Notes under the pieces: model-generated
Databases searched by the model: none
Told to the model about the DNA's origin: nothing
The model's input: the letters and a program-made list of their open reading frames with translations, nothing else
In this document: piece by piece, positions 8,303-35,800 of the stretch
Layout: every line of letters begins with the position of its first letter
How positions within the stretch are numbered: position 1 is the first letter of the stretch
DNA from: Octopus sinensis
Lineage: Eukaryota
DNA: 64,000 nucleotides
Assembly: GCF_006345805.1 (NCBI RefSeq)
Contig: NC_043004.1
Location: 107,012,001-107,076,000 of the forward strand
Direction of reading: 5' to 3'
Made by a program: the position numbers and the translations under genes

Positions 8303-9010
8303 ATCGGTTCATCGCATTTGTGAATCTGTTAGAAGTCTTTGACAAATTCTGTCAACGGTTTCTGTTACCATATTCAGGATACTTTTATGGTTTGTTCGCA
8401 GAAAGTTTGGCTACTCGCCCAAATTTGTATATTTCCTCTGCCATTCCCCCACAAGAATGGTAGCAGCTAGATTTGTTGTTAGATGCGAAGATGTAGCTTA
8501 CACCATACAAGATGGGTTTCTTTTAGTTTCCGTCTACCAAATCCATTGACAATGCTTTGGTCAGCCCAGGGCTATAGCAGAAGACACTTCCCTAAGGTGC
8601 TGCGGATGGGACTGAACCTCAGACCACAATGATTGGGGAGCAAACTTCTCTTGCACACACACACACACACACTCATATTCACGTGGCTTAACAAGTGGTG
8701 GCAGTTATTACAAGGGAAATTATTTCTGCATAATACCAGGCAGGATAAGGACTATGAATGAGAAAGCAAGAAATTATAAGGGTGAAGATGCCCAAAATTT
8801 GCATATTTATTTATTTACATGCTTATTTACTATGAAATTCTTAAAATTTCTAGTCGGTGATGATGATGATGATGAGGTATAGACTATTTCAGTCTTTTTT
8901 AAAATCATCAGCATGATATAACCTATGGCTTATTAAATATGCAATATGTTACGAAGGAATACATTTCATGAAAGAATATAATTACAATCTGGAGGTAATC
9001 CTTGGAATTT

Positions 9011-9330
9011 CTTTTATTTGTTTCAGTCATTTGACTGCGGCCATGCTGGAGCACCGCCTTTAGTCGAGCAAATCGACCCCAGGACTTATTCTTTGTAAGC
9101 CTAGTACTTATTCTATCGGCCTCTCTTGCTGAACCGCTAAGTTACGGAGACGTAAACACACCAGCATCGGTTGTCAAGTGATGTTGGGGAGACAAACATA
9201 TATATACGACGGGCTTCTTTCAGTTTCTATCTACCAAATCCACTCACAAGGCTATAATAGAAGTCACTTGCCCAAGGTGCCATGCAGTGAGAGTGAACCC
9301 GGAACCATGTGATTGGGAAGCAAGCTTCTT
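9011..9330 (-). mobile_element. SINE family A copy split by the 9331-11354 insertion (remainder 11355-11380)
   Basis: Same family as 11461-11854; sequence resumes after the TSD. Confidence 0.85.
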
Positions 9331-11354
9331 TATTTCATTAAATTTGCCACAAGGGCAGCACACAGAGAGAAGCTTGAGGGCTAGACAGAGACATTAATGG
9401 GATGAATGATGATGATATATGGATGATAAGGATGGGAGAAGACGAAAAGCGCCCGCCGACTTTCGCTTCTCTAAAAAATTGTTCATTTTTTCTTTTAAAA
9501 AAAAAAAAACAATGAGGCAATAAACCTCTTACACAGTTCAAAATCAAAAATAAAACACAAACACGAGGCAATAATCCTCTCACTTTTTACATTTTTAGTC
9601 TCTTTTTGAAGTAATACACCTCTTCAATTTTCCGCCCGGCCAGGCTCCTCGCTTCATCGAAGCACCTGGTCCGTTCCGAACTTAAAGATTTCAACATAAA
9701 TCTGAAGGAGTCATACGGGAAGGAGTTCGTTATCCTGCACAGATCGTTCTCCCATATGACCTCCGCAGCCACCTGCGAAGGCCACTCAGGGTCCTCCGTG
9801 TAGGACAGAAGCCCCTCCCACCGGCACTTCCTTTCAATTTTTTTGATTTCATTTTGCAAGGTTCCTCCCTTGTGGAAGAGGACCAAAAATTCCTCCTCCA
9901 GCAGCACACCCGCCAAAGGAGAATCGGGACACGCTGGCAGCGTGTAACAACCCGCCGGCAATGTCCCGTTTTTCTTTTTCTTTTTTTTCCTTGGGCTGCG
10001 GGAGGGTGGTGTTCCCTTGCTGTGTCCAGCAGGTCCTCCTTTTCTCCTGCAGCTCTAGGTTTCTTCGGTGGGCAAGCATGTTGCCCACCTTTCGCTTTCG
10101 TTTTTCGAGGAGGTTCCCACCTCCTCGACATCCTCCTCCTTCTCTCCCTCCATTGAGGGAGAAGGGAGTGGTTCCTCTGTTAACTGCTCCAGGATCCTAT
10201 TTTGGTCCTTGGGGCAGTTTTTCTTGATGTGACCGGTCTCCAGGCACAGGTGACACTTGGGGGGGGGCGTCCCTCGAGCATCACCGGATACCTAGACCCG
10301 GCCATCCTCAAAGAATCTGGGAAAACCACAATTTCGGCTGATTGGGTCCATAGGGTCAACACAGCTTTTGACCCCTCCCAATCAGCCGCAGGCAAAATTT
10401 TTACGTTGAGCAGCTTGGTACTGCTACCACCCAGACCCCGGCGGATAGAGTCCTCTATCCACTCGGGCTCAATTCCGGGTGGCAAGCCGCAAACCCAAGC
10501 CCTCGTCAACCTCTTACCACAATGACTGGGAAGAAACATTATTTCCTTCCCCTCGAGGGGCCGGCTTGCAAAATCGCAAGCTTCTTTGGGGGAGTCAAAT
10601 AGCAACCAGACCGTTGCAAATTTGACTCCCGTGAAATAAATTTAATAGCTGGCATGTATTCTGCCAGCTCTTTCAAAATTGTGGCTTTCGGGAAGACGGT
10701 TATGGTATCGAGCGACTTTGAATAAGTCCTCAACAGCACCGTCTTCCTTTCGAGCTCTTTTAGCCATGATTTGGGAGGTGTTAATTCCCACACTAATATT
10801 TCCTTTGCCATTTTTTTTTTTAAATAATAAGTTCAAATATAATTCGTCAATACGTTTTCAAATAAAGAAAGATACACCGAAAAAGAAAGAAGACACAACA
10901 GAAGGGAAGAAAAAATAAAAATAACAGTTCAAATAAAGTTCTTTTTTTTTTAAATAAATGATAGCTGTGAAAAGAGAGTTCAAATCCAGGCAAAGAAATA
11001 AATTTTCGGCTGAAAGGTACTCCTGGCCAAATCTTTTAATCCACGTGGGCACAAACATTTTCAAATACAATTTCTCACAATTATGTGAGACAACACACAC
11101 GTCTCCATCGCAAGGCAGACAAAAAGCTTCGAATCCAGTAAGGACTCCCTGCCTGTTCAAAAAAGTTAAAACCATCAGACAACAAATCCTACCGGACTCA
11201 AAAAGCAAAAAGTCTTACCTTACAGCGTCTTTCAGTTCAACTTTCGTCAGCTGCATACCAGCGTGACGACTTCAACAGGTGCGTGAAGAACAGTTTTTGT
11301 TCTTTTTTTCTTTTGAGGACGGAGCTCAGAGCGAGGCGTCCTCTCAGTTCAACC
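9331..11354 (-). mobile_element. 2.0-kb ORF1-only non-LTR retroelement (HAL1-like) with CCHC zinc knuckle
   Basis: 15-bp TSD ggaagcaagcttctt at 9316-9330 and 11355-11369; frameshifted ORF from ATG 10811 to about 9587 with KCHLCLETGHIKKNCP; no EN/RT motifs. Confidence 0.8.
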
Positions 11355-11460
11355 GGAAGCAAGCTTCTTACCACACAGCAACACACACACGCACACACAC
11401 ATATATATAGGTTGTTGGTGCAAACAGGAAAAATAGAACTCAAAATGTGAGTATATTACT

Positions 11461-11651
11461 CTTTTACTTGTTTCAGTCATTTGACTGCGGCCATGCTGGA
11501 GCACCGCCTTTAGTCGAGTGAATCGACCCCGGGACTTATTCTTTGTAAGGCCAGTACTTATTCTATCGGTCTCTTTTGCCGAACCGCTAAGTGACGGGGA
11601 CGTAAACACACCAGCATCGGTTGTCAAGCAATGCTAGGGGGACAAACACAA

Positions 11652-11689
<38 letters not shown>

Positions 11690-11854
11690 ATATATACGAC
11701 AGGCTTCTTTCAGTTTCCGTCTACCAAATCCACTCACAAGGCATTGGTCGGCCCGGGGCTATAGCAGAAGACACTTGCCCAAGATGCCATGCAGTGGGAC
11801 TGAACCCGGAACCATGTGGTTGGTTAGCAAGCTACTTACCACACAGCCACTCCT
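11461..11854 (-). mobile_element. SINE family A, full-length young copy with internal (TA)n
   Basis: tRNA-like head aggagtggctgtgtggtaag..ggttcagtccc; tail aaggcggtgctccagcatggccgcagtcaaatgactgaaacaagtaaaag. Confidence 0.9.
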
Positions 11855-11860
11855 GATATT

Positions 11861-11989
11861 TTTTATTAATATTTAGCAGAAACAACAGAGTAACTCAAAG
11901 TGCGAAAGTTTCATGCGTTGGCATGTTTGGTAAGTACCAATGCATGAAACCTTGAGTCACTCTGCTGCTTCTGCTAAATATTAATAAAA
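11861..11989. repeat. Imperfect inverted repeat / hairpin
   Basis: ttttattaatatttagcagaa..gagt.actcaa pairs with ttgagtcactc..ttctgctaaatattaataaaa; inner gtttcatgcgttgg / ccaatgcatgaaac. Confidence 0.85.
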
Positions 11990-11992
11990 CAG

Positions 11993-12030
<38 letters not shown>

Positions 12031-29800: not shown

Positions 29801-32800
29801 AGGCTTATTTTAAGCCAGACTGTCTCTTCTAACTTGCCTGACTCTACAATATGTGCAGCTGTACTGCTCACTTTTTATAAACTGCAAGTCTTTCTGATAT
29901 AGTTAGGGGACTCTTGTAATATACTGCAAAGTTACTTTAACCCCTTAACATTCAAACTTGCCATATCTGGCCAAAATATTCTACCTATTTTATGTTCAAA
30001 CCAGCCAGATCTGGACTCTCACACCTATCCTACAATGCCATTCTAAAAATAAGCAATCGCATTGTCAAAATCTCAAAGCTATGAGATAAAGCATGGGTTA
30101 TTGAGAACAATGTAAATTTGCATTTGACAGAATAATCTGAATGCTAAAGAGTCAAATATTGCAAGCCTTAATGCACTGGAAACATTTTCCCTGAATATGC
30201 AATGTTGAAATGAGAGTGCAGCCAATGTGCCTGTGTCTCTTTTATGCCATCGAATGTGGAGCACGGGATGCGCCGTGCAAATGGAACCAGCTGTTACACA
30301 GACTATAGGATATAAGGATAGTCGATAGTCACAATCCAGACATCATGAATGCTGGTATCATGATGTTGATGTTACATTAAGATGACTGTCTGACACCAAC
30401 TATTTAAGAGTAGGATGGTTACAAGATACAGTAAATCTGTAGTTATCTACAAGTGTTATGTAGTTTCAGCATAAGAAAACACGTCCTTTCTCATGCATAC
30501 AAAACGTCTGGTGCACTTGTCACACAGAAAACTCAACCTGAGGACAGTTATTTCTTCACAAAAAATTTCTTAGCCACCAAAATCTAACATAACTCAAACC
30601 AACAAAAAAAGTCTCTATGTGGTCGTTTGATCTGCAAGAAATAGCAGTCAAATCTCCATTTAACAATATCTTAATAATTAAAAAAAAAATAAGAGCACAG
30701 CCCTAGATATTCCTAAAAAAAACAGGAAGGTCATTCCTGAAACATCTTTGATCACAAGTCTACTTGATCAGCTCTGTCCTGGGGTTAAACAATAAAAAAA
30801 AAAAAGAAACAAACAAACAACAGCCACTGACCTGACTTTCTTGTGCAGTCTCGCCTGGTTTTCTGTTTTCTCCTTCTGTTGCATAGAGAATCTGTAATAA
30901 AAAAAAAAAATTAACTGATTAGTAAACATTAACAAAATAACAACTAGTCACGAAACACAATTAACTGGTCAATAAACATTTATTGGAAAAAATCAATTGG
31001 TCAATAGGAAATTGGAATGATTTTGGTCTTACCAAAGCATTTTTATTAGTTTTTTATTATTTTACTCAATATATTTCATTCTGCCACATGAAGATTTAGC
31101 ATGTATGTATGTAGGGGGGTGGGGGGTGAATGCACATATATCAAAATGAGTAGTTCTTAATGAGGAGAGAGAGAGAGAGCATGTATGTGTGCACATACAT
31201 ACGTGTGTGTGTGTGTGCATGAGTGTGAGTATGCATTCACACAAAAAAGATGCAAAATGGTTTTTCTCATAAGCTTTCTCAGGAATCTCTGAGATCGCTC
31301 CTACATCCCAACTCACATTGAGCAGAAGTGAGGATGTAGGTGGAGGGGCAGGGTTGGAGTTACCAGGGACATGAATCATCAAATTCACTGATGCAGAACA
31401 TTAGAATCACAGACACGATGCATTCCAATTCCTTTGGCCAGTGTCATTAGCTGTTTAACAAACATCGCATTATTACACAGTGTTAAAACATCACTTCTTT
31501 CTTCTTTAAAAAAGTCAGTGGAGGAAAGGCAACATCCAGACTTTTGTAGAACCTCTAAGATGGTAAGGAAATGGATAGAGTTTATAGTTGGGAAGTTAAT
31601 GAGCTGAATGGTGTTGTGTAAGCAAGCGGTTATGTCCTCAAGAAATTTAGTCTGTGGAGCTCAGTTTTTGTGATGTTATATGAAATTGTTATAGGAAATC
31701 ATCTGAGTTAGTATTTGTAGAAACTTTAAGTGCTTTAGCTGTGTTTTTATACACAATGGAAGGTGTAGTACAAGACTGTCTCCTTGATATTTATTTATTT
31801 ATTTTTTTGGTGCTGCTAAAGGAGACTAAGTTGCCACATCCCAATTAGGGAGTGTATTCTAGGTTGCAATTAATTCTAGGTTTGATGGATTAAATCAGGA
31901 AATGTATGGTATGTCATGGTTGCATGTGAATAACCAAAAGACAAAGAAGAGTGAAAGGCACCTTGAATCTGCAGAGATAGAAGTGTGAGTGATTAGAATG
32001 GTGAGAAGGAAGGGTAGAGGAGAGACATAGAAGTTAACAGAATTTGATTGCAGAGAATCACACATTGCTGGAACTTGCAAACCAAACTGGATCTCTCTCT
32101 CCCACCACTAATCACTCAACTATGAAAGCAGACACCTTTTGCCAGCCGGATACATTAAGGAAAGCAGAGTTTATTGGTCTCTGTCAATAAACAAACTGGA
32201 ACTGGCTGCAGTAATAAACACGGGACTCTAGAATGTGACCAGCTGGAGCAGAGCTATTTCTAATGTTTGGTTACTTATAGTTTGAAGCATGATAGAGTGT
32301 GATGTGTGAAGTGAAGTAAAGTGAGGTGGGATCCAGAGTAATGATGTGCTCAAGTGTAATTGCACTTCATGTAATTAGTGAAGTTCAGAATTATCTACAC
32401 CAGCATGGTGGCATGTGATATAGTGAATTGTACTGTCACAGAGCAGAATGTGGTGCAGTGTGTTATAGTACAGAGTGGTTTCGTATATGATATAGCTTCA
32501 TTTAGCATGAGGTGTATGAGGTACAGCGTGAGGTGTTTGTGGTACAGCATGAGGCGTCTGAGGTACAGCGTGAGGTGTATGAGGTACAGCGTGAGGGTGT
32601 TTGTGGTACAGCATGAGGCGTGTCTGAGGTACAGCATGAGGTGTATGAGTGGTCAGCGTGAGGGTGTTTGTGGTACAGCATGCAGAGGATCTAAGGTACA
32701 GCAGATGTGTGTATGAGGTACAGCGTGAGGTGTTTGTGGTACAGCATGAGGCGTCTGAGGTACAGCATGAGGTGTATGAGGTACAGCGTGAGGTGTTGTG

Positions 32801-35800
32801 GTACAGCATGAGGCATCTGAGGTACAGCATGAGGGTATGAGGTACAGCGTGAGGTGTTTGTGGTACAGCATGAGGGCGTCTGAGGTACAGCGTGAGGTGT
32901 ATGAGGTACAGCGTGAGGTGTTTGTGGTACAGCATGAGGCGTCTGAGGTACAGCATGAGGTGTATGAGGTACAGCGTGAGGTGTTTGTGGTACAGCATGA
33001 GGCATCTAAGGTACAGCATGAGGTGTATGAGGTACAGGTGAGCGTGAGGTTGTTGTGGTACAGCATGAGGCGTCTGAGGTACAGCATGAGGTGTATGAGG
33101 TACAGCGCGGAGTTGTTTGTGGTACAGCATGAGGCATCTGAGGTACAGCATGAGGTGTATGAGGTACAGCGTGAGGTGTTTGTGGTACAGCATGAGGCGT
33201 CTGAGGTACAGCGTGAGGGTATGAGGTACAGCGTGAGGTGTTTGTGGTACAGCATGAGGCGTCTGAGGTACAGCATGAGGTGTATGAGGTACAGCGTGAG
33301 GTGTTTGTGGTACAGCATGAGGCATCTAAGGTACAGCATGAGGTGTATGAGGTACAGCGTGAGGTGTTTGTGGTACAGCATGAGGCGTCTGAGGTACAGC
33401 ATGAGGTGTATGAGGTACAGCGTGAGGTGTTTGTGGTACAGCATGAGGCATCTGAGGTACAGCATGAGGTGTATGAGGTACAGCGTGAGGTGTTTGTGGT
33501 ACAGCATGAGGCGTCTGAGGTACAGCGTGAGGTGTATGAGGTACAGCGTGAGGTGTTTGTGGTACAGCATGAGGCGTCTGAGGTACAGCATGAGGTGTAT
33601 GAGGTACAGCGTGAGGTGTTTGTGGTACAGCATGAGGCATCTGAGGTACAGCATGAGGTGTATGAGGTACAGCGTGAGATGTTTGTGGTACAGCGTGGGG
33701 TGCTTGAGGTATAGCGTGAGGTGTGAAAGCATGTGACTAAATGGTTTGGGGTGTTTGGTTCATGATCGTAAGGTCATGAGTTCAATTCCTGGTGGCATAT
33801 TGTGTCCTTGAGTAAGACTCTTTGTTTCAAGTTGCTCCAGTCCACTCAGGTGGCAAAAGTTAGTTGTACCTGTAATACAAAAAGGACCAGCCTTGTAACA
33901 TTGTGTCACATTGGATCTCCCTGAGAACTACACGAAGGGTACATGTGTCTGTGGTGTACTCAGCCATTTGCTCATTAATTTCATGACCAGGCTGTTCAGC
34001 TGATCAGATCAGCTGGAACACTCACCATCATAACCAACAGAGCACCAGCTTTATAGCATGATGCAGAATGGTATGGTTTTGTTACAAAATAGTTGGCATG
34101 GGGGGGGGGGTGATATAGCATGACATTGTGTTTACAGCATAAAGTGGTGCGCTACCATATGATGTGGGGTAGTGAAGTTCAACATGGTTTGCTGTTGCAC
34201 AGTGTCAAGAAGGTTTGATAACAGGTTGTAACGGAGCTTTTAGAAAATGTGATAATAAATAATTACCTGAAATATTCTTGGAATATCTTTAGAATCAGCT
34301 CGATACACATCTCCTTGAGTAACTGGACGTACATGGAATAATTTACTAAAGGAAACAAAAAAAAAAAAATTAGAAAAATATCACTCAGACCAGATAAAGA
34401 TTATCATTGTCATGATTTCAACTCATTACATCCTGAGGTCAAATTCTGCTGAGATTAATTTTGCCTTCATCTCTCTGGGGTTGATAGAATAAAGTACCAG
34501 TCAAGTACTGGGGTCAATGTAATTGACTTGCCCCTCCCTTCAAATTTGTTGGTCTTGTACCCAAGGACACTTACAGTATGACAGTGATGCTCGTTTACAA
34601 CCATCACATGATATCAGGACAAGGAGACAGTAATGGATACACACAACGGGCTTCTTTCAGTTTCCACTTATTGGATCCACTCACAAGGCTTTGGTTGGCT
34701 CATAGCTACAGAAGCAGAAACTTACTCAAAGCGCCACCCAGTGGGACGGAACCTGAAACTATGTGGACGGCTATGTTGGATAGCTTATTTCTTGCAAGAT
34801 TAGCAATTTTGAGAGGAACGGTTAAATCAATTTCATGAACCCCAGTATTTGACTGGTACTTTAATGTATTGACTCTAAAAAGCATGAAAGACAAAAGGTG
34901 GCTTCAGTGGGATTTGAACTCAAAAAACAAAAAGAAATATTACAAAGCATTTATTCCTGAGCCAACTTACAGCTAAATAATAATGATGATAATAATAATA
35001 GATTCTTATTTTCACACAAGACCAGTAACTTTGAGCGGTGGGGTTAGTAGTCAATACTATTGATCTCAGTACTTGGAGTGGTTCTTTTATGAACCTTAGA
35101 GGAGTGAACAGCAAAACTGACTTTGATAGGATATGAACTCAGAGTATAAATAACCAGAAGAAATAGCCTTTCTACTCTAGGCACAAAGCCTGAAATTTTG
35201 GGGGTGGGGTCAGCTGATTACATCAACCCCAGTACTTGATTGGTAATTGTTTCATCAACCCATAAAGGATGAAAAGCAAAGTTGACCTCGGTGGAATTTG
35301 AACTAAAAAATGTAAAAATGAATGAAATGACGCTAAGCATTTTGTCTGGCATGCTAATGATACTGCCCGCTCATTGTCTTAATAATAATAATAATAATAA
35401 CAATAATAATAAAAGTAGTAGTAGTAGTTTTAAATTTTGCCACAAGGGAAGCAATTCTGGGGTAGAGGATGAGTCAATTACATCGACCCCAGTGTTTAAC
35501 TGGTATTTATTTTATCAACCCCAAAAGGATGCAAGGTAAGGTCAACCTCGGCAGAATTTGAACTCAGAACATAAAGAAAAATGAAATGCCATCATTCTCT
35601 GGCTCCACTCAATCACTCCTAACTCCTACCTTCTTTTCTAAAATGTGAGTTATCACGTAGCTCCTCTACAGCAAGAAACCTGTTCTGTCCCAGCCCTTTT
35701 TCTCACATCTTTACCCATCTTTCACTGCATCTTCTAGCATAAAATTGCTCAACCTGTGCTTTATAGTCTTACAAAACTGTGTAAGAGACTAGTAGCTTGA

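What the first reader, a model, noticed from the sequence alone, without database searches (positions are those of the whole stretch)
9331..11354. Young ORF1-only (HAL1-like) retrotransposon with perfect 15-bp TSD
Seen: a 2024-bp insert splits a SINE with exact TSDs. It has an about 540-nt leader and a single frameshifted ORF (ATG 10811; RAWVCGLPPGIEPEWI; CX2CX4HX4C knuckle CHLCLETGHIKKNC; acidic then basic linker; a further about 85-aa globular-looking segment ending near 9587), then a short 3' UTR. There is no endonuclease or RT. At least some frameshifts sit in homopolymers (e.g. G-run 10259-10268), so they may be sequencing errors. Established: HAL1 elements encode only ORF1p and are mobilised in trans by L1/Tx1-type partners. 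Inference: a recently active cephalopod ORF1-only family with an unrecognised C-terminal domain.
Basis: partly seen in the sequence, partly recalled or inferred. Interest (0 to 1): 0.7.

Follow-up and report, generated by a model that had tools for sequence, protein, structure and literature searches.

The report
Half-LINE that homes into SINE heads
This 2-kb insert is a decayed copy of a jumping-gene family that encodes only the first of the two usual LINE proteins and sits at one exact base inside a very common short repeat, the same base used by full enzyme-bearing LINEs whose cutting and copying enzyme it likely borrows.

Summary
Confirmed and extended. 9331-11354 (minus strand) is a frameshifted copy of an ORF1-only non-LTR retrotransposon family with no endonuclease or RT and no poly(A) tail. 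The main point is site specificity. Of 30 fetched copies, all 28 with an intact 3' end sit at the same base of a tRNA-like SINE head. Ten differently truncated copies do too, and the host SINEs are three to four times more diverged than the inserts, so the insertions are independent. Two-ORF L1/Tx1-type LINEs use the same base (30 of 30), share the last ~20-36 nt and stack in tandem with ORF1-only copies: the likely donors in trans. 'Young' is overstated (3.1% from the family majority), and the perfect 15-mer is no age marker. The ~90-aa C-terminal domain belongs to ORF1, not ORF2, and has no known relative. A short antisense copy of the target in the 3' UTR tracks the target variant in most lineages, but one subfamily breaks the rule. 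The scan found this system before in other windows; ten paper searches found no description. It is a new variant of known kinds (HAL1/HeT-A plus transposon-targeting Tx1).

The parts
9331..11354 (-). ORF1-only non-LTR retrotransposon copy, full length, no poly(A) tail
9316..9330 (-). 3' copy of the 15-nt target AAGAAGCTTGCTTCC (SINE head)
   Evidence: genomic in truncated copies that share private changes on both sides (L047, L065)
11355..11369 (-). 5' copy of the 15-nt target; distal half likely supplied by the element, as seen in related families
10812..11354 (-). 5' leader of about 540 nt; presumed internal promoter (inferred)
   Evidence: 5' hairpin not above shuffles (z -1.26)
9626..10811 (-). 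ORF1, about 397 aa in open-frame relatives; broken here by several small indels
10256..10811 (-). N-terminal region homologous to ORF1 of the two-ORF partner; likely two RNA-binding domains
   Evidence: HHalign P 98.8, 187 columns, 27%; ZCCHC3-like RNA-binding/CCHC clusters at 0.91-0.93, a lead only
10214..10255 (-). CX2CX4HX4C zinc knuckle
   Evidence: PF00098 E 6.7e-4
9626..9889 (-). C-terminal ~88-aa alpha/beta domain of the ORF1-only lineage, no known relative
   Evidence: AF2 best model pLDDT 82.5; no hit to partner ORF1/ORF2
9368..9376 (-). antisense copy of the target start (CAAGCTTCT), complementary to 9321-9329; predicted to pair with it in a read-through RNA
9345..9360 (-). small 3' stem-loop; a GCC-N-GGC core recurs in ORF1-only and two-ORF families
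9329..9334 (-). AATAAA formed across the junction (last 4 nt of the element plus first 2 nt of the target)
   Evidence: read from the sequence; function inferred
9001..9330 (-). host SINE, part 3' of the insertion (AAGAAG variant); left end approximate
   Evidence: repeat families D1, D3, D6
11370..11380 (-). remnant of the host SINE head 5' of the insertion
   Evidence: D8
11455..11856 (-). neighbouring empty SINE copy with the other target variant (AAGTAGCTTGCTAAC); ends approximate

Best explanation
The insert is a decayed member of a multi-subfamily ORF1-only non-LTR retrotransposon lineage whose copies sit at one exact base in a tRNA-like SINE head, and it likely moves by target-primed reverse transcription using the sequence-specific ORF2 of L1/Tx1-type LINEs found at the same base. 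Shown: family structure, site specificity, independent insertions, two-ORF elements at the same site with a similar last 20-36 nt, mixed tandem stacks, and purifying selection on ORF1. Inferred steps: (1) transcription from the leader runs past the element end, where AATAAA is completed by the target, so the RNA would carry a copy of the target at its 3' end; (2) the partner ORF2 binds the terminal stem-loop and nicks the bottom strand at CTT/AC; (3) the target-like RNA tail anneals to the nicked strand, which would explain base-exact 3' junctions without poly(A); (4) a target copy at the RNA 5' end joins the second strand and renews the site, so later elements stack; (5) the element's own ORF1p packages its RNA in cis.
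For: Family: at least 23 near-full-length ~2-kb copies. In 19 of 20 diverged relatives fetched with 7 kb downstream, the target junction follows about 270-550 nt after ORF1 with no ORF2. Site: 28 of 28 copies with an intact 3' end and 25 of 25 with an intact 5' end, among 30 fetched; 31 of 34 unique ends fetched by an element-only 21-mer (45 exact matches genome-wide). Independence: 10 of 15 on-target 5'-truncated copies, each broken at a different place, have the SINE head's 5' part directly upstream. Insert pairwise distance is 0.064 against 0.29 for the SINE flank (0.21-0.28 where well aligned), Mantel rho 0.02, p 0.44. Stringency: the 15-mer is exact in 17 of 22 5' copies and 12 of 22 3' copies, against 2 of 17 empty SINE heads of the same variant. 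Partner: L091 holds SINE head / ORF1-only / two-ORF LINE / ORF1-only / SINE rest. L141 has a 1137-aa EN-RT-zf-RVT frame (best PDB hit human L1 ORF2, E 3e-65). 30 of 30 such LINEs end at the target. A second two-ORF subfamily uses the window's AAGAAG variant (9 of 10 tails matching its pattern) and is 83-86% identical to the window element over the last 36 nt. Selection: dN/dS 0.16-0.27 over ORF1 residues 1-205 in 9 non-independent pairs. Precedent for target annealing: SART1Bm and R1Bm (PMC7265360 discussion).
Against: No mobilisation, nicking or RNA end was observed. The AAGAAG-using two-ORF copies found look older (terminal branches 0.05-0.11) than the window subfamily (0.015-0.053), so the actual donor was not identified. 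Similarity to the intact partner L141 is limited to about 19 terminal nt plus 27% ORF1 identity, so no parent for an internal deletion is in hand. 3 of 34 ends were off target; two of these match only the last 30-36 nt. The empty-site control is small (n=17). Placement in Tx1 rather than L1 could not be tested by phylogeny.
Confidence: 0.85

Rival explanations
1. Hitch-hiking: one insertion into a SINE master was amplified afterwards as a SINE-plus-insert composite or by duplication, so the shared site is inherited, not targeted.
For: All full-length copies have the same junction and orientation; L026/L027 are a plain duplicate pair.
Against: SINE flanks are three to four times more diverged than the inserts and uncorrelated with them. 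Ten truncated copies with ten break points lie in SINE heads. ORF1-only subfamilies down to about 50% protein identity and two-ORF LINEs use the same base.
Confidence: 0.03
2. RNA-assisted target choice: the antisense motif in the 3' UTR, the read-through tail and the 5' target copy pair with both target strands and decide which SINE variant is hit, on top of or instead of endonuclease read-out.
For: Of 150 unique junctions, 112 had a readable motif: 54 AAGAAG targets with AGCTTC, 56 AAGTAG targets with AGCTA[AC], 2 discordant; 38 had none. The motif lies about 45 nt from the end in ORF1-only and about 75 nt in two-ORF elements. The target label changes 5 times on the ORF1-only coding tree (3 forced) and once on the ORF2 tree, and the motif follows. 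Families keep to one variant although exact empty sites number 49,049 against 3,160.
Against: One ORF1-only subfamily fetched without regard to target carries the AAGTAG-type motif but sits in AAGAAG sites: 18 of 21 readable and discordant, none in AAGTAG. Private target changes were not mirrored in the motif in the 17 listed AAGAAG-type ends. AGCT is palindromic, which eases pairing. Folding z-scores are modest (-1.2 and -2.0). Target variant is confounded with age, and 3' UTR exchange lowers the number of independent switches (4 changes, 2 forced).
Confidence: 0.2
3. The original target is a true tRNA gene, or the site is only a relaxed L1-type nick site made frequent by the SINE's abundance.
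For: The head is tRNA-like by eye, and the inferred nick (CTT/AC) resembles the L1 consensus TTTT/AA (recalled). An earlier scan note called the preference loose (e1-9513582).
Against: Base-exact use of one site in 28 of 28, 30 of 30 and 31 of 34 ends; low divergence from -7 to about +15/+20 around the nick. Where the downstream flank was read it was SINE or another stacked element. ARAGORN and Rfam do not call the head a tRNA. True tRNA genes were not surveyed.
Confidence: 0.07
4. The copy is an intact, recently active element whose frameshifts are long-read assembly errors.
For: The window-private indels are small losses, mostly in homopolymers; short-read contigs at 98% give no cover over 10081-10107.
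Against: 62 substitutions from the family majority (3.1%), nearest copy 4.5%. Only 1 of 30 copies has a full open frame, and the C-run varies from 7 to 12 nt with internal interruptions across copies.
Confidence: 0.1

Closest known systems
HAL1 (half-L1), HeT-A and Ag-Sponge: ORF1-present non-autonomous LINEs (PMC5786205, PMC5753468, PMC3627910; passages read)
   Same: One ORF1-like protein, no EN or RT, coding capacity kept under selection, 3' end resembling an autonomous LINE, presumed mobilisation in trans.
   Different: Those derive from the L1, Jockey and CR1 clades; no Tx1-derived case is named in the passages read. This one has a CCHC knuckle and an extra C-terminal domain, no poly(A), and is base-exact in a SINE head. 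HeT-A goes to chromosome ends.
Tx1-Mar LINEs with SINEU-3 in crocodilians; Tx1 of Xenopus in Tx1D (Kojima 2015, PMC4494074; passages and sections 3, 14, 15 read)
   Same: LINEs that target another transposon, a non-autonomous passenger sharing the target, tandem insertions around a ~16-nt TSD, and the same hitch-hiking test passed by truncated copies.
   Different: Targets named there are DNA transposons, LTR elements, snRNA/5S genes, satellites and microsatellites, not a SINE head; the passenger is non-coding, here it encodes ORF1.
SART1Bm and R1Bm (PMC7265360; passages and discussion read; the R1Bm paper itself was not held)
   Same: Site-specific APE-type LINEs in which target-like RNA at the 3' end is proposed to anneal to the nicked strand for accurate priming.
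   Different: Their target-like bits are in the sense that pairs with the nicked bottom strand; the internal motif here is complementary to the top strand. Their targets are telomeric repeats and 28S rDNA.

Membership tests
ORF1-present non-autonomous LINE (HAL1/HeT-A/Ag-Sponge kind) | encodes ORF1p only, no EN/RT | tested here: met
ORF1-present non-autonomous LINE (HAL1/HeT-A/Ag-Sponge kind) | amplified as a family with its own ends, including 5'-truncated copies | tested here: met
ORF1-present non-autonomous LINE (HAL1/HeT-A/Ag-Sponge kind) | ORF1 kept under purifying selection | tested here: met
   dN/dS 0.16-0.27 N-terminal, 0.35-0.94 C-terminal, 9 pairs
ORF1-present non-autonomous LINE (HAL1/HeT-A/Ag-Sponge kind) | 5' and 3' parts traceable to an autonomous LINE by internal deletion | tested here: inconclusive
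   ORF1 homologous and last 19-36 nt similar, but no close parent among the two-ORF copies examined
ORF1-present non-autonomous LINE (HAL1/HeT-A/Ag-Sponge kind) | mobilised in trans by the partner ORF2 | not testable with these tools
   inferred from shared site, tail and mixed stacks
HAL1 in the strict sense (derived from mammalian-type L1) | L1-type ORF1p and poly(A) tail (features recalled) | tested here: not met
   no L1 ORF1 family hit in Pfam or PDB, a CCHC knuckle instead; no poly(A) in 28 ends
Tx1 clade (partner LINE) | two ORFs; ORF2 with APE endonuclease, RT and C-terminal zinc motif, closest to L1-group ORF2 | tested here: met
Tx1 clade (partner LINE) | target-sequence preference (common in the clade) | tested here: met
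   30 of 30
Tx1 clade (partner LINE) | RT phylogeny groups with Tx1/Keno/Kibi rather than L1 | not testable with these tools
   none of the 120 listed homologues or 8 clusters checked carried a clade name
Ferredoxin-like/RRM fold (C-terminal domain) | structural match to a solved domain | tested here: inconclusive
   Foldseek best E 0.099; VIA best Z 4.2, rmsd 4.1, 73 aligned; none at Z 5 or more of 48,161 chains
LTR retrotransposon or provirus (gag-only element) | long terminal repeats | tested here: not met
   no long direct repeat at the insert ends; 5' truncations as in target-primed insertion

The most novel reading that the evidence does not exclude
A guild of LINEs and ORF1-only hitch-hikers tracks an evolving SINE by carrying three RNA copies of its landing site (5' end, read-through tail, and an antisense motif in the 3' UTR) that pair with both DNA strands and are retuned when the SINE subfamily changes: RNA-assisted site selection in an APE-type LINE, reprogrammable by editing about 10-15 nt.
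Probability: 0.15. Interest if true: 0.85.

Novelty: new variant of a known kind. Interest (0 to 1): 0.5.

Why it matters
It joins two known strategies that the papers read list separately: an ORF1-only passenger and a transposon-targeting LINE. The target is a SINE head present in at least 52,000 exact empty copies, an abundant landing site that these elements share and can stack in. Because families keep to one of two SINE variants that differ at 2-3 bases, the system is a natural experiment on an open point: how far site choice by APE-type LINEs is set by the endonuclease and how far by RNA-DNA pairing. It also warns that a perfect TSD is not an age marker for site-specific elements.

Tried and rejected
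Hitch-hiking as a SINE composite: rejected. C-terminal segment as an ORF2 remnant: a profile of it scored -0.5 bits on the partner ORF2 and nothing on its ORF1. Homologues of that domain: Pfam on 40 members gave nothing under E 0.08; 1.84 billion representatives gave two repeat proteins that I judge artefacts; Atlas blank; fold searches gave no clear match, which does not show a new fold. The full-length AF2 model was poor (pLDDT 42; only residues 307-397 confident), so its fold search was uninformative. The protein database search gave one hit, an uncharacterised Octopus sinensis protein, 66% identical, 281 aa; only lengths 218-695 were searched. The strict rule 'antisense motif decides the target variant' was rejected by one subfamily, and so was per-insertion overwriting of the motif by the target. 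Polishing: only contigs were available and none spans the stretch; inconclusive. Expression: no RNA holder listed on record. Runs under four organism labels hold 28-43% of the words, which was not followed up per locus. tRNA and Rfam scans found nothing at threshold. Ten paper searches listed no paper describing SINE-targeting Tx1 or ORF1-only elements in cephalopods. Repbase, Dfam, subscription journals and the supplement of PMC13282606 were not seen and may hold these families. Bao and Jurka 2010 and Anzai 2005 were not held and are cited second-hand.

Full report
Observation. The insert runs 9331-11354 on the minus strand between two identical 15-mers (9316-9330, 11355-11369) and splits a SINE head. 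There are no terminal repeats. The window lies in a 2.7-Gb genome, G000.

Family. A DNA search of G000 scored 40 of 2617 candidates and gave at least 23 near-full-length copies of about 2.0 kb at 87-94% identity. One of 30 fetched copies has a 412-aa open frame. A protein search scored 150 of 11,510 candidates, down to 63% identity. In 19 of 20 such relatives fetched with 7 kb downstream, an ORF of about 400 aa is followed within about 270-550 nt by the element end, with no ORF2. dN/dS is 0.16-0.27 over residues 1-205 and 0.35-0.94 over the C-terminal domain in 9 non-independent pairs.

Site specificity. Among the 30 copies, all 28 with an intact 3' end and all 25 with an intact 5' end abut the same base of the SINE head, in the same orientation, without poly(A). 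An element-only 21-mer has 45 exact matches; of 34 unique ends examined, 31 are followed by the target. The insertions are independent. Ten of 15 on-target truncated copies, each with its own break point, have the 5' part of the SINE head directly upstream. Inserts differ by 6.4% pairwise while their SINE flanks differ by about 21-29%, with no correlation. The 15-mer is exact in 17 of 22 5' copies and 12 of 22 3' copies, but in only 2 of 17 empty heads from 464 kb of arbitrarily chosen DNA. Low divergence extends from about -7 to +15/+20. Exact empty 32-mer targets number 3,160 (AAGAAG variant) and 49,049 (AAGTAG variants).

Partner. Locus L091 reads SINE head, ORF1-only, two-ORF LINE, ORF1-only, rest of SINE, with a target copy at each joint. 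L141 holds a 1137-aa frame with endonuclease, RT and C-terminal zinc region, closest in the PDB to human L1 ORF2. All 30 top copies of this LINE end at the AAGTAG variant. A second two-ORF subfamily uses the window's AAGAAG variant and resembles the window element over the last 36 nt, but the copies found look older than the window subfamily, so the donor is not identified. The two ORF1 types are homologous over 187 columns at 27%. I call the partner L1/Tx1-type; clade placement was not testable.

Age and the 'perfect TSD'. The copy is 3.1% from the column majority, nearest copy 4.5%: above the 2% limit for recent activity in PMC13282606 (first third read) and about 8-9 million years on that paper's scale, a rough transfer. 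Some related families are younger (terminal branches under 0.01). In AAGTAG-type elements the 5' copy of the target carries family-specific variants at several loci (one in L080, L081, L084, L089; another in L073, L093, L099, L100, L105). In L104, L106, L107 and L148 it reads TAAC while the 3' copy is of the TTAC type. Its distal half is therefore element-borne there, an idea I first met in note e1-9827266. Truncated copies with private changes on both sides (L047, L065) show that a true duplication also occurs.

Antisense motif. Folding the junction showed that 9368-9376 is the reverse complement of 9321-9329 and would pair with it in a read-through RNA. Across 150 unique junctions the motif matches the target variant in 110 of 112 readable cases; 38 have none (loci L161-L190 were fetched by a pattern that includes the target, and without them the count is 101 of 102). 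It sits at different distances in ORF1-only and two-ORF elements and follows several switches of target on the trees (21 near-identical rows dropped from the 3' UTR tree). Against a guiding role: a subfamily with the AAGTAG-type motif lies in AAGAAG sites in 18 of 21 copies and in AAGTAG sites in none, private target changes are not mirrored, and age is a confounder. I read the motif as a conserved hairpin partner of the read-through tail, not as the determinant. A word search of earlier scan notes for this motif returned nothing.

C-terminal domain. Forty natural copies align over 88 residues with a conserved P-x-W-P-x-Q-x-A core. The best AF2 model is a compact alpha/beta domain (pLDDT 82.5; the other four models 55-70). 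Only weak ferredoxin-like resemblances were found and no credible sequence relative. By position and by analogy to HeT-A Gag (PMC5786205 passage) I guess a protein-interaction or RNA-binding role that helps recruit the partner's ORF2; this is untested.

Mechanism and comparison. Shown steps are family structure, site, independence, partner presence and selection. Inferred steps are trans mobilisation, the nick at CTT/AC, tail annealing (precedent in PMC7265360, discussion read) and 5' joining through an element-borne target copy. ORF1-only LINEs are known from the L1, Jockey and CR1 clades (passages). Tx1 families that target other transposons and carry a non-coding passenger are known from crocodilians (PMC4494074, sections 3, 14, 15). 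The combination with a SINE head as target was not listed in ten paper searches, but Repbase, Dfam and supplements were not seen. The scan had already noted the system in other windows of this genome; those notes are leads, not support. Verdict: real, new variant of a known kind, interest 0.5.

Noticed in passing
L091 (G000:C19:26906500-26916484), L070, L074/L079, L141, L268: Head-to-tail stacks of ORF1-only and two-ORF elements inside a single SINE head, each joint a target copy.
   Followed up: partly
L073, L093, L099, L100, L105 (5' ends): The same 5' leader start and variant target copy occurs on ORF1s from different clades, suggesting 5'-end exchange between subfamilies.
   Followed up: no
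L014 second end, L170, L173, L179, L187, L190: Further families with different 3' UTRs, some with an ORF closer to the two-ORF partner's ORF1, end at the same SINE base: possibly a second, separate ORF1-only lineage.
   Followed up: no
L219: Tandem units of another SINE-like repeat ending in a tail that resembles the LINE 3' end.
   Followed up: no
L288-L308: An ORF1-only subfamily whose antisense motif fits the younger SINE variant while its copies sit in the older one; on the 3' UTR tree it groups with a family that uses the younger variant.
   Followed up: partly
L110/L150 (G000:C8:73.01 Mb): A different L1/Tx1-type LINE (about 50% ORF2 identity to the partner) with no target copy detected at its end.
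   Followed up: no
window 32504-33724: Tandem array of a 63-nt unit (three 21-nt subunits), 19 copies, 92% matches; could be coding.
   Followed up: no
window 11856-11994: 46-nt inverted repeat, 87% complementary, 47 nt apart, next to the second SINE: MITE-like.
   Followed up: no
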